NCBI GenBank assembly: GCA_050173015.1
Contig: JBFXLE010000021.1
Location: 1-19,967 of the forward strand
Direction: 5' to 3'
Source: Calditrichaceae bacterium
Lineage (GTDB): Bacteria; Calditrichota; Calditrichia; Calditrichales; JBFXGD01
DNA length: 19,967 nucleotides
The notes under the pieces are model-generated. The model was not told the DNA's origin and searched no databases. It saw nothing but the letters and a program-made list of their open reading frames with translations. The stretch's first letter is position 1; every line of letters starts with the position of its first letter. The translations under genes and the position numbers were made by a program. Of this stretch, positions 13 through 19,967 are shown one piece after another.

Positions 13-3768
<3,756 letters not shown>

Positions 3769-3791
3769 CACCAGACAGGCAGGATATAGAT

Positions 3792-6629
3792 ATGAGCAAA
3801 CAAGAGAGTTTATTTAAGACAAAGGTCGTTCCCGGCAAACCGGGCAGCGGCAACCTTTTTGATGAAGAAATTGTGTTCAATGACGGACCGGTGAAATGCC
3901 TTGGTCTGGAATTTGAAAACGACGACGCCCGGCGTGCCCACTTTACGGAGGAACTTCGCCAAAAGCTGCAGGACCCGGAATTCCGCAAGATTGAAGGTTT
4001 CCCGATCGGAGAAGATGAGGACATCCTAAAACTGAGCGATCCGCCTTATTATACCGCTTGTCCGAACCCATGGATTGCTGACTTTATTGCCAATTGGGAA
4101 AGCCAGAAGCCAGAAAAGCCAGCGGATTTTCACTATCACCGGGAGCCATTTGCTACGGATGTGACTGAAGGGAAATATGACCCAATTTATAAGTATCATC
4201 CATATCCTACAAAAGTTCCGCATAAAGCAATCATGCGTTACATTCTCCATTATACCGAGCCTGGCGATATCGTTTTTGACGGATTCTGTGGCACTGGTAT
4301 GACAGGTGTTGCAGCTCAAATGTGTGGTAACCCCGAGGTAATAACTGCACTTGGATACCAGATAAACAAAGACGGCACTATTCTACGAGAAGACACCGAT
4401 GACTCTGGGAAAAAAACATGGGTTCCTTTCTCGAAACTCGGTAAAAGACGTGCTGTTCTAAATGATTTGTCAACAGCAGGTTCTTTCGTTTCCTATAACT
4501 ATAACACTCCTAGTAATATTGTATCCTTTGAGGCAACTGCAAACAAGTTGCTCAAGCAGATCGAAAACGAACTCCATTGGATGTATGCGACTAAACATAC
4601 AGATGGGCGTAAAGGCACAATTAATTATACAGTTTGGTCGGATGTATTTGTCTGCCAAGAATGTTCAGAGGAGATTGTGTTTTGGGAGACCGCTGTTGAT
4701 AAAGATGCTGGAAAGGTTAAGGATGAGTTTCTGTGTCCAAACTGCCAAGCCTCATTGACTAAAAGAAGCCTAGAGCGAGCTTGGACAACCGTTTTCGATC
4801 CAATGCTAAAAGAAACATTAAGACAATCTAAGCAAGTTCCAGTTTTGATAAACTATTCTGTTGGTTCTTCTCGTTTTGAAAAAAAACCTGACAATGATGA
4901 TTTGGAAACGATAAAAAAGATTGAGGAAACCGATATTTCGTGTTGGTTCCCATCAGAGAGAATGATTCACGGCAAAGAGACTCGTCGAAATGATCCTTCG
5001 GGATTGACGCACGTTCATCACTTTTATACGAAGCGAAATCTATACATTCTAGCTAAGTTAAAATCTTTATCGCCATCAGCGAAATTCAATCTGCTGATTA
5101 CCAAGGTCTCGTTTCAAATTACAAAGCTTTACCGTTTCACTTATCAAAGTGGAGTATGGGGCGCAGGAGGAGGCCCATTGTCTGGCACCCTCTATGTTCC
5201 ATCACTAATAAAAGAGCTCAACATCCTTAAACAGATAAAGAGTGCTTTGAAGCAAAGAAAAGGCATTTCCTTCCCAAAGGAATTTGGTTTTTTTGTAGGA
5301 TCAACTCAATCAAGTTCATCGCTGCCGGTTTTGCCTGATAATAGTCTTGACTATATTTTCATCGATCCACCATTTGGTGCAAATCTGTATTATTCCGAAT
5401 TGGCTTTTTTGTGGGAGTCATGGCTGCAAGTGTTGATGAACAACAAGGAAGAGGCCATTGAGAATGACGCTCAAGGTAAAGGGCTTGATGACTACAGATA
5501 TATGATGCAGAAATGTTTCTCTGAGGCATATAGGATTCTTAAGCCCGGAAGTTGGATGACTATTGAGTTTTCTAACACTAAAGCTTCTGTCTGGAATAGT
5601 ATTCAAGTTGCACTAACAGAGGCAGGATTTATTGTCGCGAATGTTTCTGCCTTGGATAAAAAGAAAGGCAGTTTTAAAGCAGTTACAACGCCAACAGCTG
5701 TTAAACAAGATCTTGTTATTTCAGCCTACAAACCAAACGGTGGATTCGAGGCGCGTTTCGAACAGGAGGCCCAGACCGAAGAAGGAGTTTGGGACTTCAT
5801 TCGCACTCACTTGAAATATCTGCCAGTTACTAAAAAACTGGGATTGGACCTCATTTCAATACCTGAACGCGATCCACGAATCCTATATGATCAAGTGATC
5901 TCCTATTACGTGCGCAAAGGCTACAACGTTCCCATCGATAGTCAGGAGTTTCAGCTTGGCTTGTCCCAGCGTTTTTCCGAGCGTGACGGCATGTATTTCC
6001 TGCCGGAGCAGGTAGCGGAATACGATCGTAAAAAAATGATCGGTGGCGGAAGACCGCTACAGCAGTCGCTATTTATTTCCGATGAAGCATCGGCCATCGA
6101 ATGGCTTCGCAGCCTGTTGCGTGACAAACCACAAAGTTTTCAGGATATCAATCCTCTGTTCATGAAGGAGATCGGCGGCTGGAGTAAAAACGAGGTCAGC
6201 TTGGAACTCTCCACTCTGCTGGAGCAGAACTTTCTACCCTATCACGGCCAAGGTCCGGTCCCTGACCAGATCCACAGCTACCTCTCCACCAACTGGAAGG
6301 ATATGCGTAACCTTGCTAAGGACGACCCGGCACTAATAGCCAAAGCCCAAGGCCGCTGGTATGTGCCCGACCCCAACAAGGCGGGTGACTTGGAGAAACT
6401 GCGTGAAAAAGCCCTTCTGAAAGAGTTTGAAGAATACAAGCAGGCTAAAAAGAAACTCAAAATATTCCGCCTCGAAGCGGTCCGTACTGGATTCAAGAAA
6501 GCCTGGCATGAGCGCGACTACGGCGTCATCATTGCCGTCGCCGACAAGATTCCGAACAACGTCCTGGAAGAAGATCCAAAACTACTCATGTGGTACGACC
6601 AGGCGGTAACAAGAATGGGAGGAGTATAA
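3792..6629 (+). CDS. pglXI: BREX-3 amino-methyltransferase PglXI (N6-adenine/N4-cytosine type), 945 aa
   Basis: SAM-binding motif I FDGFCGTG (4275-4298) precedes catalytic motif IV DPPF (5364-5375). Also a YPTKVPH motif and a CQEC...CPNC zinc-finger-like insert. AGGA ribosome-binding site at 3781-3784. Confidence 0.88.
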   Translation: MSKQESLFKTKVVPGKPGSGNLFDEEIVFNDGPVKCLGLEFENDDARRAHFTEELRQKLQDPEFRKIEGFPIGEDEDILKLSDPPYYTACPNPWIADFIANWESQKPEKPADFHYHREPFATDVTEGKYDPIYKYHPYPTKVPHKAIMRYILHYTEPGDIVFDGFCGTGMTGVAAQMCGNPEVITALGYQINKDGTILREDTDDSGKKTWVPFSKLGKRRAVLNDLSTAGSFVSYNYNTPSNIVSFEATANKLLKQIENELHWMYATKHTDGRKGTINYTVWSDVFVCQECSEEIVFWETAVDKDAGKVKDEFLCPNCQASLTKRSLERAWTTVFDPMLKETLRQSKQVPVLINYSVGSSRFEKKPDNDDLETIKKIEETDISCWFPSERMIHGKETRRNDPSGLTHVHHFYTKRNLYILAKLKSLSPSAKFNLLITKVSFQITKLYRFTYQSGVWGAGGGPLSGTLYVPSLIKELNILKQIKSALKQRKGISFPKEFGFFVGSTQSSSSLPVLPDNSLDYIFIDPPFGANLYYSELAFLWESWLQVLMNNKEEAIENDAQGKGLDDYRYMMQKCFSEAYRILKPGSWMTIEFSNTKASVWNSIQVALTEAGFIVANVSALDKKKGSFKAVTTPTAVKQDLVISAYKPNGGFEARFEQEAQTEEGVWDFIRTHLKYLPVTKKLGLDLISIPERDPRILYDQVISYYVRKGYNVPIDSQEFQLGLSQRFSERDGMYFLPEQVAEYDRKKMIGGGRPLQQSLFISDEASAIEWLRSLLRDKPQSFQDINPLFMKEIGGWSKNEVSLELSTLLEQNFLPYHGQGPVPDQIHSYLSTNWKDMRNLAKDDPALIAKAQGRWYVPDPNKAGDLEKLREKALLKEFEEYKQAKKKLKIFRLEAVRTGFKKAWHERDYGVIIAVADKIPNNVLEEDPKLLMWYDQAVTRMGGV

Positions 6630-7975
6630 TGCCAAATTGTGGGCAATTGACCTGGAAGGCAAAAGACGTTCAATCGCTCAACAGACCACACGACAACGAG
6701 GAGCTCTGGAATTTTGCCAAAGGATGGATTCGTAGGTTTAGCGAGACAGATGAGAGTAATGTTTCAGAAAAGCTTATTTACCTTTGGGTTACGGTCAATG
6801 CCTGGGCGTCGAAGAGTGTTCCGGACTTAAGCCGAAACCACGAAGATGCTTATCTAGTACATTGCATGGCCAAAGACAAAGCCTTGTCTGAGCGTTTCGA
6901 TAAACTTAATCAAGTCGAGACAGAATTCCGCGACACTGTTAAATCCTTTATGAATCTGGCTCCGGTCTTTCAGGCTCTATGGTTGAATAATAATGGAATC
7001 GGGCCATGGAATATTGTTGATGATCGTAAAACATATGTCAAAAAAGTTATTAAACGCGATCCATTTATTATTTTACTTAGAGAAGATGGAGAAAAACGGT
7101 TTCCAGTTTTTGCTCCAGCATGCGCTTTAGATCATCTTCAGGCTGGCGAACCCATACCCGCCGATTGGCCTCATTTGATTTCTATGATTTACCAGGTTCG
7201 TTGCAATTTGTTCCATGGAGGAAAAAATTACAATAGGGATTCTGATCGAAAGTTCATCGAACTAGCCTACAAGATTCTCTGGGAGGTATGGAAGGATGAA
7301 TTACCTCCAAACGTCCTTCCAAACAAATTGCCATGGGTCAGAGTTTTGATTAGAAGCGGATTTATGATCCAATCTGCAGACGATAGAAATATCTCTCTCG
7401 GGGAAGAAATAGACCAGAATGTAGAATATCTAAAGGAAATTGTTAATTATGGGCGTTTTGGGACGGTTGAAGATAAGATGTTCACGCCAGCAGATAACCA
7501 TATTGAGGAAAGCGTTTGGCTAAATGCAGTTGCATCATGCCATGGGGGGGCTGAAGGTGGCACAGCGGACGAACTCCCTATCATGGATCCGTTCATGGCA
7601 GGCCTAATTAGGTGGTTGAACCTTGTTGGAATCCAGACTACATTCAGTTGTGACGGTCACGGTCGTATCCCGGCCCAAATGGAATGCGTTGACGTAAACT
7701 CTGCTCACAAAGCAGCGTGTATTTTGAATTTTTCAGGACGGCAATTCCGGCAGCAAGGCCGACGGGTCTTCATTGTTCCAGGCCAAGAATACTATAGTCG
7801 GGGCAACTCAAACTCCAATGTTAGGCATCTTCTTGACGTCGCCGAATGGCTGTATTCCAACCAAAGTCAATTGTCATCCACCGTACAGTTATTGGGTAAC
7901 ATCAGCCCTCTGTTAGCATCTCGCTCTGATCCGGTGAATCACCACCGACGCCACGAAAACCGGCGGGGAAGATAA
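6629..7975 (+). CDS. Accessory two-domain protein: N-terminal HEPN-like (RxxxxH) domain plus C-terminal SCDGHG domain of unknown function, 448 aa
   Basis: Start reassigned from 6590 to ATG 6629, which overlaps the pglXI stop (TAATG) and follows GGAGGAG at 6618-6624. IYQVRCNLFHGGK (RCNLFH at 7199-7216) plus upstream LIYLWVTVNAW resemble HEPN-family motifs. C-terminal part has DPFMAGLIRWLNLVGIQTTFSCDGHG. Confidence 0.7.
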   Translation: MPNCGQLTWKAKDVQSLNRPHDNEELWNFAKGWIRRFSETDESNVSEKLIYLWVTVNAWASKSVPDLSRNHEDAYLVHCMAKDKALSERFDKLNQVETEFRDTVKSFMNLAPVFQALWLNNNGIGPWNIVDDRKTYVKKVIKRDPFIILLREDGEKRFPVFAPACALDHLQAGEPIPADWPHLISMIYQVRCNLFHGGKNYNRDSDRKFIELAYKILWEVWKDELPPNVLPNKLPWVRVLIRSGFMIQSADDRNISLGEEIDQNVEYLKEIVNYGRFGTVEDKMFTPADNHIEESVWLNAVASCHGGAEGGTADELPIMDPFMAGLIRWLNLVGIQTTFSCDGHGRIPAQMECVDVNSAHKAACILNFSGRQFRQQGRRVFIVPGQEYYSRGNSNSNVRHLLDVAEWLYSNQSQLSSTVQLLGNISPLLASRSDPVNHHRRHENRRGR

Positions 7976-7977
7976 CC

Positions 7978-10863
7978 GTGACATCACCCTGGCAATACAG
8001 CACCGTTCATAACAGCGCCTGCAAGGTTATCGAGGAACAGACCTTGTGGGGGCAGACAATTTGCCTTGTCTGGTTACCGAACCTGGAAGCGGTAGTGCGT
8101 GTGCCCCGCTCCATCCTGCGGCCGCTGAATGCCGACTTACAGCCGGAGATCGAGGCCGGACGTATTGCCTATGTGGCCGCCGCCGCCAAGGTGGCCGAAG
8201 TGCTCGAAGGCTCCACAAGCATCTCCGACGACCATGTGCTGTTAGCTCCTATGGAGTCCAACGTCATCCCATTGCCACACCAGATCCACACCTTGTCCCG
8301 GGCCATTTCCGGCGACCGCGTGCGCTATCTGCTGGCCGACGAGGTGGGGCTCGGCAAGACCATCGAGGCCGGTTTGATCATGCGCGAACTAAAGCTGCGC
8401 GGGCTGGTGCGCCGGACACTTGTCGTCTCTCCCAAAGGCATCGCTACCCAGTGGGTGGCGGAAATGCAGACCCACTTCAACGAACGGTTCCAACTCGTGT
8501 TGGGCGACGATATCAGCACATTACAACGACTGGCTCCAGGGGCAGACCAGCGGAGTTCAGCCTGGTCGATGTTCGATCAGGTCATCGTCTCCCTGGATTC
8601 CGTCAAGCCTATGGATAAGCGGCGTGGCTGGACGGCCGAACGCATTGCCGAATACAACCGCAGCCGGTTCGAGGACCTGATTACCGCCGGTTGGGATTTG
8701 GTGGTGGTAGACGAAGCGCACCGTCTGGGTGGCAGCACCGATCAGGTCGCCCGCTACAAACTCGGCAAAGGACTGGCGGAGGCCGCGCCACATTTACTTC
8801 TGCTTTCGGCAACGCCACACCAGGGAAAGACCGATTCCTTCCATCGCCTGTTGAACCTGATGGATGATGATGCCTTCCCGGATATAGACAGCGTCTCCCG
8901 CGACCGGGTAGCCCCATATGTCATTCGCACCGAGAAGCGTAAGGCTATCGATGCCGACGGCAAGCCGCTCTTCAAGCCCCGGCGAACACAGATGGTCCCG
9001 GTGGCTTGGGAGAGCCGCCATCAACTGCAGCGGCTTCTCTACGAGGCAGTGACTGACTACGTGCGTGAGGGTTACAACCAGGCCCTGCGTGAGAAGAAGC
9101 GCCACATCGGATTTCTGATGACTCTGATGCAGCGCCTGGTGGTCTCCAGCACCCGGGCGATCCGAACCACGTTGGAACGGCGGCTCGCCGCACTCAAGGA
9201 TGGGGAACAACAAGCCAGTCTGCGCCTGGCGGAATCTGAGAACGGTAGGGATGGCTCGGAGAACTTCGACGAGCTGTATGATATGGATGGTCAGGAGCTG
9301 CTCGATGAGCTGCTGAAATCCCATGTGTTGGCCCTGCAGAGCGAAGGCGGCCACGTGGAGAGCCTGCTCGATGCGGCGCTTCGCTGTGAGCAGGCCGGAC
9401 CGGACGCCAAAGCCGAGGCGTTGATTGAACGTATCTATATGCTGCAAGCCGAGGAAAACGAACCGGATTTGAAAGTACTGATCTTCACCGAGTTCGTTCC
9501 CACCCAGCAGATGTTGAAGGAATTTCTGGAGGCACGGGGAATCCCGGTGGTCACCCTGAACGGCTCCATGGACATGGAGGAACGTAATCAGGCCCAGGAT
9601 GCTTTCCGCAAATCACATCGAGTGCTGGTCTCCACCGATGCGGGAGGAGAAGGTTTGAACCTGCAGTTCGCCCATGTGATCATCAACTACGACATCCCCT
9701 GGAATCCAATGCGACTGGAGCAGCGGATCGGACGCGTTGATCGTATCGGCCAGACCAGGATAGTGCGGGCCATCAATTTCGTCTTTGAGGATTCGGTCGA
9801 GTTCCGTGTTCGCGAAGTGCTGGAACAGAAGCTCTCGGTGATTTTCGACGAGTTCGGCATCGACAAGACCGGGGATGTGCTCGATTCCGCCCAGGCTGGT
9901 GAACTGTTTGAAGATGTGTTTGCCTCAGCCATCCTTAATCCTGACGGCATCCAAACATCCATCGAACACACGGTGGCCAGGATTCGCGATGAACTCCAGC
10001 AGGTGAGTGAGTCCTCGGCTATTTATGGAAATTCCGGAGAACCGGATTTGCAAACCACCGAGCGTCTGCGTTCTCATCCTCTGCCCCATTGGGTAGAGCG
10101 AATGACGGTTAGTTACCTCAACTCCCACGGGGGGGAGGCGATCCGCAAGCGCTCCTGGTGGGACCTGAAATGGCCGGATGGCCAGGAACACCGCAAAGCC
10201 GTATTCAGCGCCCGGGAAGCGGATCGTCTAACCGACGCAACCCTGCTCAATCTTGAAAACAGTCGCGTCCGTGGTCTTGCCCTGAACCTGCCCCAGGTCG
10301 TGGCAGGTCAGCCATTGCCGTGCGTAACCGTAAGCGGGCTGCCAGCCAGCATCTCCGGACTCTGGGGGCTCTTTGAGATCCGCCTTCAGGCCGGAATGCA
10401 CCAGAAGACACAACTCCTGCGCATCCACATGGTGCGGCGTGGCTATGTCAGCGTGTTTTTGAGCGAGGAAGGCAAACTGTTTCTGCCCACGGCCAGGCAT
10501 ATCTGGGATGCGCTGCAGACTGCGGAAACCGAGGTGAAAGCCACCCTCGGGCAGGATGAATCCCTCATCGCCCATGAGCGTTTGCAGGAAGCAGCCGAAC
10601 AGGCCGGACAGGAGCTGTTCGACACATTGCAGCAGGCGCACATAGTTTCGGTGACCCGGGAAGAAGAACGCGGCATGGTTGCTTTAGCTTCTCGGCGGAA
10701 GGCTATTGAGCGAGTGGGGTTGCCTGAAGTACGCCAGTACCGTCTGGCCCGCTGTGATGCCGAGGAGGCTGAGTGGCGACATGAACTGCAATCAGCGCGG
10801 CAGATCGTTCCGGAAATCCGGTCGCTGCTGATGCTGCGCATCATCAAGGGAGGCGCTCAATGA
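7978..10863 (+). CDS. brxHII: BREX-3 SNF2/RapA-like superfamily 2 helicase BrxHII, 961 aa
   Basis: Motifs LADEVGLGKT (I), VVVDEAH (II), LSAT (III), STDAGGEGLNLQ (V), QRIGRVDRIGQ (VI). GTG start; lies directly before pglZ. Confidence 0.88.
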   Translation: MTSPWQYSTVHNSACKVIEEQTLWGQTICLVWLPNLEAVVRVPRSILRPLNADLQPEIEAGRIAYVAAAAKVAEVLEGSTSISDDHVLLAPMESNVIPLPHQIHTLSRAISGDRVRYLLADEVGLGKTIEAGLIMRELKLRGLVRRTLVVSPKGIATQWVAEMQTHFNERFQLVLGDDISTLQRLAPGADQRSSAWSMFDQVIVSLDSVKPMDKRRGWTAERIAEYNRSRFEDLITAGWDLVVVDEAHRLGGSTDQVARYKLGKGLAEAAPHLLLLSATPHQGKTDSFHRLLNLMDDDAFPDIDSVSRDRVAPYVIRTEKRKAIDADGKPLFKPRRTQMVPVAWESRHQLQRLLYEAVTDYVREGYNQALREKKRHIGFLMTLMQRLVVSSTRAIRTTLERRLAALKDGEQQASLRLAESENGRDGSENFDELYDMDGQELLDELLKSHVLALQSEGGHVESLLDAALRCEQAGPDAKAEALIERIYMLQAEENEPDLKVLIFTEFVPTQQMLKEFLEARGIPVVTLNGSMDMEERNQAQDAFRKSHRVLVSTDAGGEGLNLQFAHVIINYDIPWNPMRLEQRIGRVDRIGQTRIVRAINFVFEDSVEFRVREVLEQKLSVIFDEFGIDKTGDVLDSAQAGELFEDVFASAILNPDGIQTSIEHTVARIRDELQQVSESSAIYGNSGEPDLQTTERLRSHPLPHWVERMTVSYLNSHGGEAIRKRSWWDLKWPDGQEHRKAVFSAREADRLTDATLLNLENSRVRGLALNLPQVVAGQPLPCVTVSGLPASISGLWGLFEIRLQAGMHQKTQLLRIHMVRRGYVSVFLSEEGKLFLPTARHIWDALQTAETEVKATLGQDESLIAHERLQEAAEQAGQELFDTLQQAHIVSVTREEERGMVALASRRKAIERVGLPEVRQYRLARCDAEEAEWRHELQSARQIVPEIRSLLMLRIIKGGAQ

Positions 10864-12854
10864 GTAGCTGGCGAGACGCCATCCTGAATGACTTCGTTCC
10901 CAATGTCAGCAAGCTGACCCTGGTCGCCGATCCGGATTGCCTGCTGACCGAGGAAAAACTGGCTCTTGAATTACGCGGGCGCGGCTTCGACCTGATCGAG
11001 TTCAATGACCCGGTCGAATTCAGATACGCCTATGAGTCCAAATACCGCTCGATCTGGGATCGCGGCGAACATACCGACCTGGTGGTGATTCTCCGCTTGC
11101 AGGATGCCGAGTTAGAATCCCTGCCATACGACCTGCTCCAAGCGGGCCGCAAACTGTCGTTCAATCTGGGGGATCTCTTCCCAACGCTCAGCTATCCGGT
11201 TATCGAGAAGCTCGACCGAAGTCTGCTGGACGCACTTTTCGAGGCCCAGCGCAAGTCGCCGCCGGATCGCATGGGCGATAACGCCACCAAGGATTTCATC
11301 CTCCGCCATGTGTTCGGCATCGCCGCTGAGCTGATAGGGGGCGAGGTCGAACTGCTTCGCGCCTTGCTTCGCCTGCACTATGGGAAGCTTCAAATCCCAC
11401 TGATGCTGGCCGAGCGGCTTATTCAGGTTCTCAAGGGGCATGATGGCTTCAAGGCCTGGCCGCTCTCTGAAATCGTTCCGGACGATGAGGCGTTCTTCGC
11501 CTTTTTGCAGGAACGCTGGCCGCTATTTCTTTCCAGGCTCGGCAGCGCTCATCAGTTACGGGAGGATTCGCCGGAATACGGCCTCAAGTATCCCGGCCCT
11601 GATCGCCTGCCGTTCGACCATCAGGACATCAAGGTCTACATCGACAACCTGTTCCTGGAGGGGAAACTCACCCCCGTCGAGGCCAAAGGCATTGAAGTGG
11701 ATGCCGGGTCCTGGGTTCGAAGCGGCATCGCCATAGCTAGTGTGGATGACGAAGAGTTTCGTGTTTCCCGCCTGTTTGGCCTGGTCCAGAAAGAGCTGCC
11801 CACAGCGGAATCTCGTTACTTTGACTGGACCACCTTTGCGCTGAAATGGGCCGAGCTCTCTTCGCTGGTTTATTGTGGCAGCAGCGCCGAGTATCAGATC
11901 CGGCTCAGGGAAATCGGTGATGTCCTGAACACGACCTTTGCCGGATGGCTGGGTGACCACTATGCCAGCCTGATCAACCTGCCGCCGACAAATTCGGCCA
12001 TGCTACACCATTTGCCACGTCGCATGGCTCGAGATATCGAAGTTTCAGGTAGCAGCCGTACCGCATTGGTCGTGGTCGATGGACTTGCCTTGGATCAGTG
12101 GGTGACCATCCGCCAGCTTTTGCAAAAGCAGGATGCCAATCTGGTCATGCGCGAATCCGCGACCTTCGCCTGGATTCCGACGCTGACCTCGGTATCGAGA
12201 CAATCGATTTTCTCGGGTAAGCCCCCGCTCTATTTTCCGTCATCTATCAACTCAACCAACAGCGAAGAGAAACTATGGAAGCAGTTTTGGGAAGGCCAAG
12301 GCCTGTCTAGGCTGGATGTCGCTTACCAGCGCGGCCTGGGCGACGGCGATGCATCCAGCGTACTTGATTCCGTAATCCATCCCGGTAAAACCAAGGTGGT
12401 GGGGCTGGTCGTGGACAAGGTTGACAAGATCATGCACGGCATGCAACTCGGCTCGGCCGGGATGCACAACCAGATCAAGCAGTGGTGCCAGAGTGGATTT
12501 CTTGGTGCGCTGGTCGGCCAACTGTTGGATTACGGCTATAAAGTCTGGCTTACGTCCGATCATGGCAACACTCAATGTGAGGGCAAAGGCCGCCCATCTG
12601 AGGGGGTGATTGCCGAAACTCGCGGCGAGCGTGTTCGTGTGTACCACACGCCGGATCTCCGCTTTCAGGTTGCTGGGGCCTTCCCGTTTGCGCACGAGTG
12701 GCAGCCGGTCGGATTGCCAGATGACTATTTTCCTCTGGTGGCAGATGGTCGCGCCGCGTTTGTGCAACCAGGGGTGACCATCGTAGGTCATGGGGGTGTA
12801 GCCATCGAAGAAGTCATCGTGCCCCTTGTGAAGTTTGAAAAAAGGACACGATGA
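10860..12854 (+). CDS. pglZ: BREX-3 PglZ, alkaline-phosphatase-superfamily protein, 664 aa
   Basis: C-terminal PglZ signature motifs VVVDGL, IPTLTSVSR, DKIMHG, LTSDHG and HGG...EEVIVP. Confidence 0.93.
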   Translation: MSSWRDAILNDFVPNVSKLTLVADPDCLLTEEKLALELRGRGFDLIEFNDPVEFRYAYESKYRSIWDRGEHTDLVVILRLQDAELESLPYDLLQAGRKLSFNLGDLFPTLSYPVIEKLDRSLLDALFEAQRKSPPDRMGDNATKDFILRHVFGIAAELIGGEVELLRALLRLHYGKLQIPLMLAERLIQVLKGHDGFKAWPLSEIVPDDEAFFAFLQERWPLFLSRLGSAHQLREDSPEYGLKYPGPDRLPFDHQDIKVYIDNLFLEGKLTPVEAKGIEVDAGSWVRSGIAIASVDDEEFRVSRLFGLVQKELPTAESRYFDWTTFALKWAELSSLVYCGSSAEYQIRLREIGDVLNTTFAGWLGDHYASLINLPPTNSAMLHHLPRRMARDIEVSGSSRTALVVVDGLALDQWVTIRQLLQKQDANLVMRESATFAWIPTLTSVSRQSIFSGKPPLYFPSSINSTNSEEKLWKQFWEGQGLSRLDVAYQRGLGDGDASSVLDSVIHPGKTKVVGLVVDKVDKIMHGMQLGSAGMHNQIKQWCQSGFLGALVGQLLDYGYKVWLTSDHGNTQCEGKGRPSEGVIAETRGERVRVYHTPDLRFQVAGAFPFAHEWQPVGLPDDYFPLVADGRAAFVQPGVTIVGHGGVAIEEVIVPLVKFEKRTR

Positions 12855-13612
12855 TGGGCAAAAGACACGAAAAATTAGGAATTAAACAGACGATTCAGAG
12901 ACAATGGATGGACAAGACTGTTCAAATGATGCTTGCGGGTTTATCAGAGAAAGAAATCCGGTCAGAACTTGATGAGTATTTATCAACACAAAAACAGAGT
13001 GGTGGTATTGGAGAGAGAGGTAAGAAAACATATGGGATGGCAATCTCACTTTTAGCAGCTTGGTTTGCACCAAAAGAAGAATTACGCCCATTCAGTAATG
13101 ATGCGCTTTGCATTGCGAGAGAATTACCAACAGAACTATGGAAGCCTTTGCATTGGGCAGTTCTCTCAGCGTCTTATCCTTTCTGGTTTAATGTGGCTCG
13201 ACAGACCGGTCGACTTCTCAACCTTCAGTACCAGATCACGCAACCGCAGATATTTAGTCGGTTAAAGGAACAATACGGTGATCGTGAAACTGTATCGCGA
13301 AACGCCCGTTACACGGTTAGATCATTTGTTGCTTGGGGAGCCCTGAAGGATTCCGAAACCAAGGGTTGCTATGAGAAAGCCTCTCCGGTGAGAATTGTCG
13401 ATGCAAAACTGGTCATCCTGATGTTAGAGTCCGCACTCATGGCCACACCGGAGGCCAAAAGCGCATTGGGGCTACTCCTGAACAATCCGGCATTTTTTCC
13501 ATTCCAACTTCCTGTATTAACCGGTGACTTTGTATCCCAACGCAGCGACCGGATCGAACTGGTTCGCTATGGGCTGGACGACGAGCTTTTGATGTTGAAG
13601 ATAGGTGATTGA
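12851..13612 (+). CDS. brxA: Probable BREX-3 BrxA-type terminal protein, 253 aa
   Basis: Coupled to pglZ by an ATGA overlap; size and last position fit BREX-3 brxA; contains a helical YPFW...RLKEQYGDRETV segment. Assignment rests mainly on context. Confidence 0.65.
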   Translation: MMGKRHEKLGIKQTIQRQWMDKTVQMMLAGLSEKEIRSELDEYLSTQKQSGGIGERGKKTYGMAISLLAAWFAPKEELRPFSNDALCIARELPTELWKPLHWAVLSASYPFWFNVARQTGRLLNLQYQITQPQIFSRLKEQYGDRETVSRNARYTVRSFVAWGALKDSETKGCYEKASPVRIVDAKLVILMLESALMATPEAKSALGLLLNNPAFFPFQLPVLTGDFVSQRSDRIELVRYGLDDELLMLKIGD

Positions 13613-14214: not shown

Positions 14215-14287
14215 GCGAGAGTAGCTCAGCTGGTAGAGCACAACCTTGCCAAGGTTGGGGTCGCGGGTTCGAATCCCGTCTCTCGCT
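14215..14287 (+). tRNA. tRNA-Gly (GCC)
   Basis: Acceptor stem GCGAGAG/CTCTCGC, anticodon arm CAACC-TTGCCAA-GGTTG, T-loop GGTTCGAATCC; CCA not encoded. Confidence 0.97.
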
Positions 14288-14308
14288 CATTTTTATTTAT
14301 AGGGTTCC

Positions 14309-14384
14309 GGCGACGTACCCAAGTGGCTAAGGGAGAGGTCTGCAAAACCTTTATGCGGCGGTTCGAATCCGCCCGTCGCCTCCA
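14309..14384 (+). tRNA. tRNA-Cys (GCA)
   Basis: Acceptor stem GGCGACG/CGTCGCC, U73 discriminator, anticodon arm GAGGT-CTGCAAA-ACCTT, T-loop GGTTCGAATCC; encoded CCA. Confidence 0.97.
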
Positions 14385-14403
14385 AGATTTTAACAATTAT
14401 TCT

Positions 14404-14489
14404 GCCGGGGTGGTGGAATTGGTAGACACAAGGGACTTAAAATCCCTCGGGAGTTAAATCCCGTACCGGTTCAAGTCCGGTCCCCGGTA
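14404..14489 (+). tRNA. tRNA-Leu (TAA)
   Basis: Acceptor stem GCCGGGG/CCCCGGT, anticodon arm AGGGA-CTTAAAA-TCCCT, long variable arm CGGGA...TCCCG, T-loop GGTTCAAGTCC; CCA not encoded. Confidence 0.97.
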
Positions 14490-14501
14490 CAATAATTAAT
14501 T

Positions 14502-18038: not shown

Positions 18039-18156
18039 TAGTGAATAGTTAAAAAATCTTTTTCGTTTTAATCTATTAGGAAAAATGGAAAGGAGGTTAA
18101 AGGAATTTAAACCGTCAATCCGGTTATATCAATTAACTATTAATCGCGGAGGTTCT

Positions 18157-19967
18157 ATGAGCAATTTTAGAAAAAACATAATGGCCGGCATTTCCATTGT
18201 GTTTTTTACTGTATTAGTGAGTCCTGTCCTTCTTCTGGCTGATATCAATTCGATTGGCAGCTTTGAAGGCGATATGCCATCGTACTGGACAAAAGGCAGT
18301 GTTCCCGGCGGTTCCACGCTGGAATGGGCAACGGATGCTTCCCGTAACATGGGTCGTTCGTTAAAGATCACGAAAGAAGTGACCGGTGATTCAGCAGCCT
18401 GGATCTCAGAGAACATGCTTGATTTATGGTCACCACAGCATTACAAAGACGTGGATATTTTTGTTGGCGCCTGGGTAAAGACAGAGAATGTGAATGTGAA
18501 TCCCGCCAATGATGATGAGAAGTGGTATGTATCCTATAATTTCTACAATGAAAGCGGCGAATTTATTGGTGAGACCAAACTGCCGATCGATCAGAGTGTT
18601 GCCAGCAGCCTCGGCTGGGTGGCAGATACCAACGCGGTAGGCGCCACGATTCTGCCTGAAGATTCCTGGAAGACGATAATAAAATTTGTGGGCGGAAAAA
18701 ACGCGACCGGTACCGTTTGGGCCGATGATTTTATGCTCTATGGCCGTGACGGCGCCTGGGCCGGACAGGACTGGAATTCATCTGTAGGTGTTCCGACCGG
18801 CTGGAATTACTGGTTACCGCCGGTTGGTGGAAATGACGGTGAACTGGCCAATGGTTATGAGAATACGGTAATAACGGATGAAGAATCTTATACCGGTTTA
18901 TATTCATTAAAACTTGATCTGCCTTTTGACCGCGCCCCGCATGACGGCTGGATTGGCACAAAACGGTATCAGCTCACTGATGTATCGGCTGGAGATGTAG
19001 TCAGAATCAGCGTTTGGATCAAAGCCAGTGATCTGGTGCCCGATTCCGCCGCCGCATATCCGGGTACATGGTCGGTTGGAATCACCCCGATCTTCCACAG
19101 CGGCTACTTAAGCAACGATTCCTATGATGAAATCGGCGCTCAGGATCTGGTGTTCAAATTCCCCGCCGTGACATCCTTTGACTGGACTGAATTTTATGTT
19201 GATGTGACAGTTCCGGCTGACGCGAATGCAAAAGCGCTGTCCGTAAGAATTCATCCCTACGCCAGATTTACCGGCACTGTTTATTTTGATGAATTGACAG
19301 TCAGGAAACTGGATATTCCCGAGATAAGCGGGATTGGCAGCTTTGAAGGCGATATGCCATCGTACTGGACAAAAGGCAGTGTTCCCGGCGGTTCCACGCT
19401 GGAATGGGCAACGGATGCTTCCCGTAACATGGGTCGTTCGTTAAAGATCACGAAAGAAGTGACCGGTGATTCAGCAGCCTGGATCTCAGAGAACATGCTT
19501 GATTTATGGTCACCACAGCATTACAAAGACGTGGATATTTTTGTTGGCGCCTGGGTAAAGACAGAGAATGTGAATGTGAATCCCGCCAATGATGATGAGA
19601 AGTGGTATGTATCCTATAATTTCTACAATGAAAGCGGCGAATTTATTGGTGAGACCAAACTGCCGATCGATCAGAGTGTTGCCAGCAGCCTCGGCTGGGT
19701 GGCAGATACCAACGCGGTAGGCGCCACGATTCTGCCTGAAGATTCCTGGAAGACGATAATAAAATTTGTGGGCGGAAAAAACGCGACCGGTACCGTTTGG
19801 GCCGATGATTTTATGCTCTATGGCCGTGACGGCGCCTGGGCCGGACAGGACTGGAATTCATCTGTAGGTGTTCCGACCGGCTGGAATTACTGGTTACCGC
19901 CGGTTGGTGGAAATGACGGTGAACTGGCCAATGGTTATGAGAATACGGTAATAACGGATGAAGAATC
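18157..19967 (+). CDS. Large secreted protein with tandem carbohydrate-binding-like beta-sandwich modules; partial, at least 603 aa, runs off the window and is missing from the ORF track
   Basis: GGAGG at 18148-18152, ATG at 18157, frame open to the window end. Signal peptide MSNFRKNIMAGISIVFFTVLVSPVLLLA followed by DINSIGSFEG. Trp-rich modules with SFEG...SLKI...GAWVKT...GTVWADDF and SLKL...SVWIKA...GTVYFDELTV, resembling CBM4/9 or CBM16-like domains. Confidence 0.85.
   Translation, partial: MSNFRKNIMAGISIVFFTVLVSPVLLLADINSIGSFEGDMPSYWTKGSVPGGSTLEWATDASRNMGRSLKITKEVTGDSAAWISENMLDLWSPQHYKDVDIFVGAWVKTENVNVNPANDDEKWYVSYNFYNESGEFIGETKLPIDQSVASSLGWVADTNAVGATILPEDSWKTIIKFVGGKNATGTVWADDFMLYGRDGAWAGQDWNSSVGVPTGWNYWLPPVGGNDGELANGYENTVITDEESYTGLYSLKLDLPFDRAPHDGWIGTKRYQLTDVSAGDVVRISVWIKASDLVPDSAAAYPGTWSVGITPIFHSGYLSNDSYDEIGAQDLVFKFPAVTSFDWTEFYVDVTVPADANAKALSVRIHPYARFTGTVYFDELTVRKLDIPEISGIGSFEGDMPSYWTKGSVPGGSTLEWATDASRNMGRSLKITKEVTGDSAAWISENMLDLWSPQHYKDVDIFVGAWVKTENVNVNPANDDEKWYVSYNFYNESGEFIGETKLPIDQSVASSLGWVADTNAVGATILPEDSWKTIIKFVGGKNATGTVWADDFMLYGRDGAWAGQDWNSSVGVPTGWNYWLPPVGGNDGELANGYENTVITDEE
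18252..19331 (+). repeat. Intragenic tandem repeat unit 1 (1080 bp, 360 aa)
   Basis: 18252-18887 matches 19332-19967 with no mismatch found in line-by-line comparison; the offset of 1080 preserves frame. Confidence 0.95.
19332..19967 (+). repeat. Intragenic tandem repeat unit 2 (partial, 636 bp to the window end)
   Basis: Identical to 18252-18887. Confidence 0.95.

What the first reader, a model, noticed from the sequence alone, without database searches (positions are those of the whole stretch)
6629..7975. HEPN-like RNase gene embedded in and translationally coupled to a type 3 BREX operon: candidate backup (abortive infection) effector
Seen: an AT-rich gene (line 7021-7080 is 15/60 GC) sits between pglXI and brxHII, overlaps the pglXI stop by TAATG, ends 2 nt before brxHII, and carries an intact RCNLFH motif (7199-7216). 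Established: canonical BREX-3 has no gene at this position; RxxxxH is the HEPN RNase catalytic motif; toxic nucleases nested in methylation-based systems can act as guards (PrrC in type I R-M), and accessory defence genes such as brxU occur inside type 1 BREX loci. Inference: this protein is a latent RNase co-expressed with PglXI and activated when a phage inhibits BREX (for example by DNA mimicry or SAM depletion). No separate antitoxin such as an MNT gene is visible, so control would come from its own C-terminal domain or from the BREX complex.
Basis: partly seen in the sequence, partly recalled or inferred. Interest (0 to 1): 0.82.

Follow-up and report, generated by a model that had tools for sequence, protein, structure and literature searches.

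The report
HEPN-type RNase cargo inside BREX-3
A gene wedged between the methylase and helicase genes of a type 3 BREX phage-defence operon encodes a likely RNA-cutting (HEPN) domain joined to an undescribed second domain, one more example of the already reported habit of BREX operons to carry backup effectors.

Summary
A 448-codon gene (6629-7975) lies between pglXI and brxHII of a type 3 BREX operon. Its ATG overlaps the pglXI stop (TAATG), it ends 2 nt before the brxHII GTG, and it carries RCNLFH at 7199-7216.

The N-terminal 230 residues are best read as a HEPN-superfamily domain. The AlphaFold model has the four-helix core, a large insert between helices 2 and 3, and Rx4H at the end of helix 3. 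HEPN structures head the structure search, though only at Z 6-7. R191 is kept in 49/51 and 75/75 homologues, H196 in 50/51 and 74/75. No Pfam, NCBIfam or PADLOC model matches.

The C-terminal half is an undescribed alpha/beta module. Elsewhere it is fused to another HEPN family, fused to DNA methylases, or encoded beside SNF2 helicase/methylase operons.

Close relatives (63-75% identity) occupy the same BREX-3 slot in four other contigs. More distant full-length relatives stand alone outside defence loci. Other loci hold AbiU, AbiL or AbiE in this slot.

The gene is most likely a mobile HEPN RNase backup or abortive-infection effector. The specific "guard of BREX" reading is untested. HEPN effectors embedded in BREX are already in print (NAR 2026; Payne 2024), so interest is moderate.

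The parts
3792..6629 (+). pglXI (type 3 BREX adenine methyltransferase), the upstream neighbour. Its last codons carry the ribosome-binding site of the extra gene.
   Evidence: PADLOC PDLC02541 PglXI E=0, Pfam N6_N4_Mtase. GC 44.6%; middle part 39-42%, last ~600 nt 52-53%.
6617..6631 (+). Coupling junction: GGGAGGAG, then TAATG (pglXI stop overlapping the start of the extra gene).
   Evidence: Read directly. The same junction occurs in L055, L001 and L080 (TAATG) and in L057 (TGATG).
6629..7975 (+). The extra gene (protein P0001, 448 aa): an N-terminal HEPN-like domain plus an undescribed C-terminal alpha/beta module.
   Evidence: ORF and translation. 93 near-length homologues including the query, and 392 cluster representatives at E<=1e-3. 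AF2 model pLDDT 88.2.
6629..7318 (+). N-terminal domain (residues 1-230). Core helices are 24-39, 45-63, 180-196 and 204-224, with a 115-residue insert (64-179) between helices 2 and 3.
   Evidence: DSSP of the model. VIA-align top rows are HEPN structures at Z 6.2-7.3 over residues 20-228. The domain occurs on its own as proteins of about 160-280 aa in many genomes.
7199..7216 (+). RCNLFH = Rx4H motif (R191...H196) at the C-terminal end of helix 3, followed by GGK.
   Evidence: R191 49/51 and 75/75, N193 51/51 and 68/75, H196 50/51 and 74/75, G197 all, K199 47/51 and 75/75. The motif position matches the HEPN description in PMC3710099.
7319..7903 (+). C-terminal module (residues 231-425). Two small alpha/beta subdomains (about 232-309 and 310-424), with conserved AEGG...IMD...G..RW.N..G..T..SCDGHG.
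   Evidence: Separate AF2 model pLDDT 89.0, pTM 0.85. No clear known fold: best Z 6.7, no Foldseek hit at E<=0.001. Occurs alone, fused to PF18736 HEPN, or fused to methylases.
7646..7663 (+). SCDGHG motif (S340-G345), the most conserved stretch of the C-terminal module.
   Evidence: S340 is invariant; C341, G343 and H344 are kept in >=90% of A1. S, C and G are >=90% in A2. H is not kept in P0186.
7904..7972 (+). Low-confidence, basic C-terminal tail (residues 426-448).
   Evidence: pLDDT about 44 for the last 20 residues. Not conserved in the alignment.
7978..10863 (+). brxHII (SNF2 helicase), the downstream neighbour. It starts 2 nt after the stop of the extra gene.
   Evidence: PADLOC PDLC02500 E=0. 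L055 has the same stop-CC-GTG junction.
28..3768 (+). brxC (DUF6079 ATPase). The contig starts at window base 1, so brxF, if present, is off the contig.
   Evidence: Pfam DUF6079 and PADLOC BrxC, both E=0. The window is C21:1-19967.
10860..13612 (+). pglZ (10860-12854) and brxA (12851-13612), the end of the operon.
   Evidence: PADLOC PglZ E=0, BrxA E=8e-94.

Best explanation
The gene encodes a two-domain accessory effector carried as cargo in the pglXI-brxHII slot of a type 3 BREX operon.

Shown:
- It is a real, conserved gene.
- It is co-oriented with pglXI, and its start overlaps the pglXI stop.
- The same arrangement recurs in four other contigs.
- Its N-terminal domain has the predicted architecture of the HEPN superfamily, with a strictly conserved Rx4H.
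- Its two domains are separable modules. They recur next to, or fused with, DNA adenine methylases and SNF2 helicases of RM-like defence operons.

Inferred:
- The HEPN domain is a metal-independent endoRNase, as in other Rx4-6H HEPN proteins.
- It acts as a backup or abortive-infection effector that cleaves host and/or phage RNA once infection is sensed.
- The C-terminal alpha/beta module keeps it in check or supplies recognition, either of a nucleic acid or of a protein partner.
- The gene is made together with PglXI simply because it rides in the operon.

It is a mobile cassette rather than a core BREX part. It keeps about 41-45% GC in every context, and its relatives also work outside BREX.
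For: Gene and junction:
- Coordinates and overlaps were read directly.
- TAATG or TGATG overlap with the pglXI stop in 4 of 4 other pglXI-adjacent loci (L001, L055, L057, L080).

HEPN reading:
- AF2 model pLDDT 88.2 has core helices 24-39, 45-63, 180-196 and 204-224, with a 115-residue insert between helices 2 and 3 and R191-H196 at the end of helix 3.
[quoted passage not shown] Here that residue is E47, kept in 49/51.
- In the full scan of 48,161 PDB representatives, 9 of the 10 top rows map to residues 19-229. Eight of those nine are HEPN proteins or HEPN-bearing nucleases: AbiA 8oz7 Z 7.3, 2hsb 7.3, 7ae2 6.9, 1wwp 6.7, 8xdj 6.7, Csm6 8jbc 6.5, 5yep 6.5, 1ylm 6.4. The ninth is 1jog (Z 6.2), whose entry title reads 'substrate binding domain of a nucleotidyltransferase'. 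The HEPN label for AbiA, Csm6 and 5yep is partly recalled.
- Conservation: R191 49/51 and 75/75, H196 50/51 and 74/75, N193 51/51 and 68/75.
- Divergent members carry the canonical RN...H: P0188 VRNNIFHG and P0092.

Defence context:
- Relatives of 63-75% identity lie between pglXI and brxHII in L055 and L057 and directly after pglXI in L001 and L080.
- In L057 the slot also holds AbiU and a 23S-IVP/bAvd-like gene. In G019, a genome of the same order, the slot holds AbiL plus AbiE.
- A minimal N-domain gene follows a methylase by 2 nt in a helicase-methylase operon (L036). Another precedes an HsdM-like gene (L085).
- C-only genes precede an SNF2 helicase in L087, L089 and L099, followed by an adenine methylase in L087/L089. 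In L019 a C-only gene follows an SNF2 helicase and an X-like gene.
- The C-module is fused to methylase-like proteins (P0150 = L025, and L100) and to Pfam HEPN pEK499_p136 (P0186, P0198).

Mobility:
- The gene is found in 1 of 39 genomes of the host's order, the host itself.
- It is 41-45% GC against 54-61% neighbours in L055, L057, L001, L080 and L056.
Against: - No sequence model of any HEPN family matches: 0 of 51 full-length and 0 of 75 N-domain homologues in Pfam. hhalign against a two-sequence pEK499_p136 profile gave probability 0.07.
- The structural Z-scores (6-7) lie in the range the tool itself calls common for helical bundles. Foldseek found nothing at E<=0.001.
- The residue after R is Cys (30/51) or Arg (16/51), not the usual N, D or H.
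- Most full-length relatives (41-47% identity) in the Aminicenantes-type MAGs examined have no BREX genes within 10 kb. The annotated flanks of three of them hold an amidohydrolase, peptidases, an ECF sigma factor and a glutathione peroxidase. Those relatives have the GC of their hosts. They were found in 13 of 72 genomes of that order. This fits a resident gene that may not be a defence gene.
- No toxicity, RNase or phage data exist. No RNA data were found.
Confidence: 0.55

Rival explanations
1. Dedicated guard of BREX. The protein is physically tied to PglXI or BrxHII through its C-terminal module and is held inactive by the intact complex. It is released as an RNase when a phage inhibits the methylase or helicase, for example by a DNA mimic or by SAM depletion, in the way PrrC is held by EcoprrI.
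For: - The overlap with the pglXI stop is conserved in 5 of 5 pglXI-adjacent loci, the window included.
- Both domains recur right next to or fused with adenine methylases and SNF2 helicases in at least three system types: BREX-3, SNF2-plus-methylase operons (L036, L087, L089, L099, L019), and methylase fusions (L025, L100).
- Weak hints of SAM- or tRNA-related folds for the C-module, as leads only. TYW3-like structures score Z 5.5-5.7. The nearest named Atlas cluster carries the MTHFR SAM-binding regulatory domain at score 0.77, which is in the chance range.
Against: - Full-length relatives exist without any BREX, methylase or helicase neighbour.
- A 65%-identical relative sits outside BREX (L056).
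- The slot is a general cargo site that also holds AbiU, AbiL and AbiE, so position alone does not show coupling.
- No interaction was tested.
Confidence: 0.2
2. Resident RNA-processing or regulatory protein, not a toxin. The family has a housekeeping-type role in RNA metabolism, as some HEPN proteins do, and the BREX-embedded copies are passengers or were co-opted for regulation of the operon.
For: - Aminicenantes-type MAG copies are single-copy and GC-adapted.
- In 8 of the 11 loci listed, a 554-571-aa ORF lies upstream on the opposite strand. It was identified as an amidohydrolase in L007 only.
- The annotated neighbours there are housekeeping-type genes.
- The C-module has RRM-like and RNase M5 RNA-binding-domain-like similarities at Z 4-5.
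Against: - Patchy distribution: 13 of 72 genomes in that order, and 1 of 39 in the host's order.
- Repeated embedding in defence operons, next to Abi cargo.
- Compositionally foreign in all BREX contexts.
Confidence: 0.15
3. The N-domain is a HEPN-like helical bundle that binds a ligand or nucleic acid without cutting it, as in the nucleotidyltransferase-associated HEPN substrate-binding domains. The conserved C, H and D residues, or the SCDGHG site of the C-module, carry the real activity.
For: - Several nucleotidyltransferase-associated helical domains are among the structural matches: HI0074, GlnE, DrrA, LinB.
- The family has further conserved residues outside the motif: C4, R133, C165, H169, D179, W180 and H182, each in at least 90% of sequences. 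They could form a metal site; that is inference.
- S340 is invariant and C341 nearly so in the C-module.
Against: - According to PMC3710099, HEPN domains that lost catalysis have typically lost the Rx4-6H motif. Here it is almost invariant.
- No nucleotidyltransferase partner is present.
Confidence: 0.1

Closest known systems
HEPN endoRNases as auxiliary/backup effectors embedded in BREX and BREX-related operons (Rakesh & Krishnan, NAR 2026, PMC12839542; sections 25 and 35 read, HEPN passages searched)
   Same: A HEPN-type gene lies inside the core operon, flanked by BREX genes on both sides. That paper proposes such genes as suicidal backup effectors for when phage counter-defence neutralises the primary system.
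   Different: The paper describes HEPN as mostly stand-alone or MNT-fused. I saw no description of a HEPN joined to this alpha/beta C-terminal module. Its Supplementary Data S4, which lists the neighbourhoods, could not be opened, so I cannot say whether this family is in their catalogue.
HEC-08 (Hma-embedded candidate 08; Payne et al., bioRxiv 10.1101/2024.01.29.577857; passages read)
   Same: A single protein with an N-terminal HEPN and an unrelated C-terminal region, embedded in a helicase/methylase/ATPase defence operon. Defence was lost on mutating the H of Rx4-6H.
   Different: HEC-08 has a DUF3644 HEPN and zinc-ribbon-like C-terminal domains. The protein studied here matches no PADLOC 2.0.0 model at E<=0.01 and has a different C-terminal module. 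It has not been tested experimentally.
pEK499_p136-like HEPN family (Pfam PF18736; Anantharaman et al. 2013, PMC3710099, Table 1 passage read)
   Same: That family is reported in operons with R-M genes and 'the Pgl components'. Two proteins, P0186 and P0198, join a PF18736 HEPN to the same C-terminal module as in this gene.
   Different: The N-domain here does not match PF18736. It shows no profile similarity to P0186/P0198.
PrrC / RloC anticodon nucleases in type I R-M loci (as summarised in PMC3710099 and in Payne et al.; mechanism partly recalled)
   Same: A HEPN RNase gene nested in a methylation-based defence locus. PrrC is the precedent for the guard idea.
   Different: PrrC and RloC carry an N-terminal ABC-ATPase. 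This protein has no NTPase domain, and no evidence of latency or of a trigger exists.
ApeA-like HEPN (Pfam PF18739)
   Same: One source (UniRef) names the 65%-identical Desulfomicrobium macestii homologue P0007 'Apea-like HEPN domain-cont...'. ApeA is listed as embedded in R-M operons in PMC3710099.
   Different: No A1 member, P0007 included, matched PF18739 at E<=1. The roughly 300-aa beta-rich ApeA-NTD1 described in PMC3710099 is absent.

Membership tests
HEPN superfamily (Anantharaman et al. 2013) | [quoted passage not shown] | tested here: met
   The AF2 model (pLDDT 88.2) has helices 24-39, 45-63, 180-196 and 204-224, with an insert at 64-179. VIA-align aligns 106-118 residues spanning 19-229 to HEPN structures at Z 6.2-7.3. 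This rests on a predicted structure and modest Z-scores.
HEPN superfamily (Anantharaman et al. 2013) | [quoted passage not shown] | tested here: met
   R191-H196 close helix 180-196. R is kept in 49/51 and 75/75, H in 50/51 and 74/75. The position matches the text found.
HEPN superfamily (Anantharaman et al. 2013) | Polar residue (N, D or H) immediately after the R (typical, not obligatory) | tested here: not met
   Position 192 is C in 30/51 and R in 16/51 (A1), and C in 69/75 and N in 4/75 (A3). An invariant N sits at +2 instead. Divergent members P0188 and P0092 do have RN.
HEPN superfamily (Anantharaman et al. 2013) | Conserved acidic residue in helix 2 | tested here: met
   E47 lies in helix 45-63. 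It is E in 49/51 (A1), and E or D in 54/75 (A3).
HEPN superfamily (Anantharaman et al. 2013) | Sequence-profile match to a described HEPN family | tested here: not met
   Pfam: 0 families for P0001 at E<=10. 0 of 75 N-domain homologues at E<=0.01. No HEPN family among 51 full-length homologues at E<=1. hhalign against PF18736-bearing proteins gave probability 0.07.
HEPN superfamily (Anantharaman et al. 2013) | Metal-independent RNase activity | not testable with these tools
   Needs biochemistry.
ApeA-like HEPN (PF18739) | Match to the family model; beta-rich ApeA-NTD1 in front of the HEPN domain | tested here: not met
   0 of 51 members match at E<=1. The HEPN-like domain starts at residue ~20, with no N-terminal beta domain.
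Type 3 BREX core gene set (brxF, brxC, pglXI, brxHII, pglZ, brxA) | Being one of the six conserved components | tested here: not met
   No PADLOC BREX model matches. The slot is filled by other genes in G019, and no brxHII follows pglXI on the short contig L051 of G066. Relatives occur without BREX.
HEPN-MNT type II/VII toxin-antitoxin pair | Adjacent minimal nucleotidyltransferase antitoxin | tested here: not met
   The operon genes are BrxC, PglXI, X, BrxHII, PglZ and BrxA only. No recurrent partner gene was found beside 35 N-only loci.
PrrC/RloC-type guards | ABC-ATPase domain fused N-terminally to the HEPN nuclease | tested here: not met
   No ATPase domain by Pfam or in the model.
TYW3-like fold (for the C-terminal subdomain) | Structural and sequence match to TYW3 | tested here: inconclusive
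   Four TYW3-type PDB entries align at Z 4.2-5.7 over 78-105 residues. These rows tie with aminotransferase and ArgR rows. No Pfam TYW3 hit. No TYW3 sequence could be fetched for a profile comparison.

The most novel reading that the evidence does not exclude
The C-terminal alpha/beta module is a previously unrecognised adaptor or sensor domain of methylase/helicase-based immunity. It would dock different HEPN RNases (this family and pEK499_p136) onto adenine methylases or SNF2 helicases of BREX-3 and related operons, or read their state, possibly through SAM. The RNase would then fire when the methylation machinery is blocked. This would be a modular, PrrC-like guard principle spread over several RM-like systems.
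Probability: 0.15. Interest if true: 0.75.

Novelty: new variant of a known kind. Interest (0 to 1): 0.45.

Why it matters
Type 3 BREX has, as far as the papers read here say, not been dissected experimentally, and how BREX copes with phage inhibitors is an open question.

This gene adds a compact, single-protein candidate backup effector. Its catalytic motif (R191/H196) is easy to mutate, and the family has no model in Pfam, NCBIfam or PADLOC, so current defence finders miss it.

The more useful lead is the C-terminal module. It recurs with two different HEPN families, as a fusion to methylases, and as a separate gene beside SNF2 helicase/methylase operons. This makes it a candidate link between RNase effectors and methylation-based immunity.

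If the gene is only passenger cargo, it is still one more instance of the documented 'defence genes embedded in defence operons' pattern. It also shows that the pglXI-brxHII junction is a cassette site.

Tried and rejected
- **Sequence families.** Pfam, NCBIfam and PADLOC gave nothing for P0001. PHROGs gave only phrog_6638 (unknown function) at E 0.0015 over residues 319-359.
- **PDB by sequence.** Single-sequence and three profile searches gave no credible hit.
- **Foldseek.** Searches against PDB with the whole model and with the C-domain model, and against BFVD with the C-domain model, gave no match at E<=0.001. BFVD showed only weak rows to uncharacterised phage proteins.
- **hhalign.** The N-domain profile against P0186/P0198 (PF18736 HEPN) gave probability 0.07.
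- **ESM Atlas.** The N-domain's neighbours are unnamed clusters, and the nearest named one (HEPN_RiboL-PSP) scores 0.75. The C-domain's nearest named cluster (MTHFR_C/DUF6919) scores 0.77. Both are in the chance range and are kept as leads only.
- **TYW3 lead.** A search for PF02676 in the one archaeal genome reachable through L037 found none, so no TYW3 sequence was available for profile comparison.
- **Homodimer prediction.** Two copies with alignment A1 gave the verdict 'no answer' at score 0.00. This is neither for nor against dimerisation.
- **Expression.** No RNA holder was listed among the sequencing runs.
- **Phage and plasmid records.** tblastn of the C-domain against phage records found no match. 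tblastn of the whole protein against plasmids found 3 weak N-domain hits (25.6-26.2% identity) annotated as hypothetical proteins.
- **UniRef name.** The origin of the 'Apea-like HEPN' name stays unchecked.
- **Partner-gene search.** Clustering ORFs within 3.5 kb of 35 N-only and 11 C-only loci found no recurrent small partner for the N-only genes.
- **L113.** The 1444-aa protein in front of the N-only gene has no PDB relative, so I do not call it a methylase.
- **Rejected: a wrong-frame or chance ORF.** Rejected because of the 93 near-length homologues (query included) and the high-confidence fold.
- **Rejected: the gene is AT-rich relative to its host.** Rejected by the genome GC of 41.9%.

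Full report
**1. The observation**

The window opens with a type 3 BREX operon on the + strand (PADLOC and Pfam):

| Gene | Coordinates | Evidence |
|---|---|---|
| brxC | 28-3768 | DUF6079 |
| pglXI | 3792-6629 | PADLOC PglXI |
| extra gene | 6629-7975 | no family |
| brxHII | 7978-10863 | PADLOC BrxHI/BrxHII model |
| pglZ | 10860-12854 | PADLOC PglZ |
| brxA | 12851-13612 | PADLOC BrxA |

The window is the first 19,967 bases of contig C21, so brxF would lie off the contig.

- The pglXI stop TAA (6627-6629) overlaps the ATG (6629-6631), with GGGAGGAG 5 nt upstream.
- The ORF ends at 7975, and the brxHII GTG is at 7978.
- RCNLFH is in frame at 7199-7216 (residues 191-196).
- Line 7021-7080 has 15/60 G+C.

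The alternative GTG start at 6590 is not used by homologues, which begin at the MxNCG of the ATG start.

**2. Composition**

The gene is 44.8% GC (GC3 43%). brxC, brxHII and pglZ are 57-59% (GC3 67-76%). However, pglXI (44.6%) and brxA (45.7%) are as low as the gene, and the genome is 41.9% GC. Only 0.07% of its 3-kb windows reach 58%. In this genome the BREX backbone is therefore the foreign-looking part, and the operon is a mosaic.

In the other contigs that carry the gene, it is 41-45% GC beside neighbours of 54-61%. The neighbours measured were the pglXI 3' end, brxHII, or non-BREX flanks in L056. The gene behaves as a compositionally distinct cassette wherever it occurs in this subclade.

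**3. What the protein is**

P0001 (448 aa) matches nothing in Pfam (E<=10), NCBIfam or PADLOC. It has one weak PHROG hit of unknown function. PDB sequence searches give nothing.

It has many homologues:
- 93 near-length proteins including the query at E<=0.001.
- 392 50%-identity cluster representatives at E<=0.001, of which 215 are at <=1e-10.

The second search shows that the two halves are separable. Many proteins match only residues ~1-230 and many others only ~233-430.

AlphaFold2 with a 51-sequence alignment gives pLDDT 88.2. The C-terminal half alone gives pLDDT 89.0 and pTM 0.85.

**4. The N-terminal domain**

The model has helices at 24-39 and 45-63. A 115-residue insert follows, made of helices and a beta-hairpin. 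Then come helices 180-196 and 204-224. R191...H196 sit at the C-terminal end of the third core helix.

Anantharaman et al. 2013 (PMC3710099, passages read) describe the HEPN domain as follows:
[quoted passage not shown] - a conserved acidic residue in helix 2.

All three features are present; the acidic residue is E47, kept in 49/51.

An alignment of the model against 48,161 PDB representatives puts HEPN proteins at the top for residues ~20-228:

| Entry | Protein | Z |
|---|---|---|
| 8oz7 | AbiA | 7.3 |
| 2hsb | AF_0298 HEPN | 7.3 |
| 7ae2 | HEPN toxin | 6.9 |
| 1wwp | HEPN (named as such in PMC3710099) | 6.7 |
| 8xdj | HEPN toxin | 6.7 |
| 8jbc | Csm6 | 6.5 |
| 5yep | SO_3166 | 6.5 |
| 1ylm | YutE | 6.4 |
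| 1jog | HI0074 | 6.2 |

Further down are 4nqf, AbiV 9bj5 and sacsin HEPN 3o10.

These Z values are modest, and the tool warns that helical bundles below Z ~13 may only share a common arrangement. Foldseek found nothing at E<=0.001. The fold call therefore rests on three things together: the ranking, the motif position, and conservation.

Conservation:

| Residue | A1 (51 full-length) | A3 (75 N-domain) |
|---|---|---|
| R191 | 49/51 | 75/75 |
| N193 | 51/51 | 68/75 |
| H196 | 50/51 | 74/75 |
| G197 | all | all |
| K199 | 47/51 | 75/75 |

Points against membership:
- No Pfam HEPN model hits any of the 51 full-length or 75 N-domain homologues.
- hhalign against two PF18736-bearing proteins shows nothing.
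- The residue after R is Cys or Arg rather than N, D or H. Divergent members do have RN (P0188 VRNNIFHG; P0092).

UniRef calls the 65%-identical D. macestii protein 'Apea-like HEPN'.

Further near-invariant residues are C4, R133, P163, C165, H169, D179, W180 and H182. They suggest a metal or structural site linking the N-terminus, the insert and helix 3. This is inference only.

**5. The C-terminal module**

Residues 231-425 fold into two small alpha/beta subdomains. The conserved signature is AEGG...IMD..M.G..RW.N..G..T..SCDGHG.

No known fold stands out:
- Best Z is 6.7, to the C-terminal subdomain of an aminotransferase.
- ArgR C-domains follow at 5.7.
- Four TYW3-type entries score 4.2-5.7.
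- RRM-like domains score about 4.
- For residues 232-309, the RNA-binding domain of RNase M5 scores 4.9.

BFVD gives only weak rows to uncharacterised phage proteins. I treat the TYW3 match and the Atlas 'MTHFR SAM-binding' neighbour (score 0.77) as untested leads.

The module's company is informative:
- Of 48 C-module proteins, 2 (P0186, P0198) have a bona fide Pfam HEPN pEK499_p136 domain in front of it, E 1.6e-23 and 7.4e-22, with RNAVAH.
- P0150 (= L025), and a second instance in L100, join it to a methylase-like protein with weak N6_Mtase/Methylase_S hits.
- C-only genes lie directly before a ~1100-aa SNF2 helicase in L087, L089 and L099. In L087/L089 a ~1260-aa adenine methylase follows.
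- In L019 an X-like 445-aa protein plus a C-only gene sit between an SNF2 helicase and a RecD-like helicase.

**6. Genomic contexts of the family**

I examined 126 loci from two collections. Of these, 74 have at least 2 kb on one side or more.

BREX-3 slot:
- L055 (70% identity): pglXI - X - brxHII.
- L057 (63%): pglXI - X - AbiU - 23S-IVP/bAvd-like - brxHII - pglZ - brxA.
- L001 (75%) and L080 (68%): X directly after the pglXI 3' end.
- In all four the start overlaps the pglXI stop (TAATG three times, TGATG once).
- L055 repeats the stop-CC-GTG junction to brxHII.
- BrxHII is 85-89% identical between these loci and the window. X is 63-70% identical and the PglXI C-terminus 76-77%. The backbone is therefore more similar than the cassette.

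Outside BREX:
- L056 (65% identity) lies after an RmuC gene and 3 kb from a type I HsdM gene on the other strand.
- Full-length relatives of 41-47% identity in Aminicenantes-type MAGs have no BREX gene within 10 kb.
- The annotated flanks of three of them (L003, L006, L007) hold an amidohydrolase, peptidases, an ECF sigma factor and a glutathione peroxidase.
- Those relatives have host-like GC and occur in 13 of 72 genomes of that order.

N-only genes:
- A 163-aa minimal version (IRCNLFHGGKN) starts 2 nt after a methylase gene in a helicase-methylase operon (L036).
- Another lies in front of an HsdM-like gene (L085).
- No recurrent small partner gene was found.

With my small query set, 15 of 126 loci have a DNA methylase or SNF2 helicase within 5 kb or fused. 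This is a lower bound and not an enrichment test.

In the host's own order the gene was found in 1 of 39 genomes, the host itself.

**7. The slot**

PglXI was found in 3 of 86 genomes of the host's phylum.
- In G019 the pglXI-brxHII gap holds four genes: AbiLi/AbiLii (AAA_21 + RloB) and AbiEi/AbiEii.
- In G066 pglXI is followed by pglZ on a short contig (L051).

Together with L057, this shows that the slot takes various abortive-infection cargo. Earlier notes of this scan said the same of other genomes (e1-4962312, e1-4962314); I tested that claim only on these loci.

In L080 only the last 27 codons of pglXI (85% identical) precede the gene. Upstream are unrelated ORFs and a short helicase-like fragment. 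This resembles the recombination scars described in e1-4962314.

**8. Mechanism**

Most likely (0.55): a mobile, single-protein HEPN endoRNase effector that rides in the BREX-3 cargo slot and is translated together with PglXI. The C-terminal module would restrain or direct it. On infection it would cleave RNA and stop growth of the infected cell or of the phage.

The steps shown are gene reality, embedding and coupling, HEPN-like architecture with conserved motif, modularity, and recurrent RM-like neighbourhoods. The steps inferred are RNase activity, toxicity, the regulatory role of the C-module, and the defence phenotype.

It is weakened by stand-alone relatives and by the generic nature of the slot.

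A housekeeping or regulatory role (0.15) and a non-catalytic HEPN-like binder (0.1) remain possible.

**9. Comparison with what is known, and novelty**

The kind is already known:
- PMC12839542 (sections 25 and 35 read; HEPN passages searched) catalogues HEPN, Schlafen, PIN, TOPRIM and other nucleases embedded in BREX operons and proposes them as backup suicidal effectors.
- Payne et al. [quoted passage not shown] They also showed that the embedded HEPN protein HEC-08 needs its motif histidine.
- PMC3710099 already listed a HEPN family with 'the Pgl components'.

Not found in what I could read:
- This family, which has no Pfam, NCBIfam or PADLOC model.
- Its C-terminal module, and that module's recurrence with methylases and helicases.

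Two full-text searches returned no paper describing either (terms BREX/HEPN/'type 3' and HEPN/BREX/embedded/'abortive infection'). The supplements of the NAR paper, which may list this neighbourhood, were closed.

I therefore rate it a new variant of a known kind, of moderate interest.

**10. Verdict**

- Observation: confirmed.
- Interpretation: partly supported.
- Interest: 0.45.

Noticed in passing
window 28-13612: The BREX-3 operon is a GC mosaic. brxC, brxHII and pglZ are 57-59% GC (GC3 67-76%) in a 41.9% GC genome. pglXI, the extra gene and brxA are 44-46%. Within pglXI the middle (about 4200-5600) is 39-42% and the last ~600 nt 52-53%. This suggests exchange of the target-recognition part and of cassettes within a recently acquired backbone.
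   Followed up: partly
window 14215-14490: A cluster of three tRNA genes (Gly-GCC, Cys-GCA, Leu-TAA) lies about 600 nt after brxA, in a 1-kb stretch without ORFs of 80 aa or more. It may mark the border of the defence island or an integration site.
   Followed up: no
window 18252-18551 and 19332-19631: A perfect direct repeat of at least 300 nt, spaced 1080 nt, lies inside the open-ended ORF 18085-19965, whose translation repeats a long block. It could be a recent internal duplication of a secreted or surface protein domain, or an assembly artefact.
   Followed up: no
L080:1-2053: Only the last 27 codons of pglXI (85% identical) precede the gene here. Upstream are a 5'-open ORF with a short BrxHII-like stretch (42% over residues 98-192) and two small ORFs. 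This looks like a recombination scar from stacked cassettes, as earlier scan notes described for other genomes.
   Followed up: partly
L054 (G019:C31) 7924-11700: In another genome of the same order, the pglXI-brxHII slot holds AbiLi/AbiLii and AbiEi/AbiEii, four genes on the operon strand.
   Followed up: yes
L036:290-7532 and L087:1581-9522: These are compact operons of an SNF2 helicase (~1100 aa) plus a large adenine methylase (~1150-1260 aa). One has a minimal 163-aa HEPN-like gene after the methylase (L036). The other has a C-module-only gene in front of the helicase (L087).
   Followed up: partly
L019:231-15573: A five-gene operon: a 1906-aa protein, an SNF2 helicase, an X-like HEPN-plus-C protein whose C-module has lost SCDGHG, a C-only protein, and a RecD/Pif1-like helicase. 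It may be an undescribed composite defence system.
   Followed up: partly
L056:11490-12691: Directly after the non-BREX copy of the gene come a DSP-PTPase-like protein ('polymorphic toxin system' Pfam family Tc-R-P) and an HATPase_c_2 protein. RmuC and a type I HsdM gene lie upstream.
   Followed up: no
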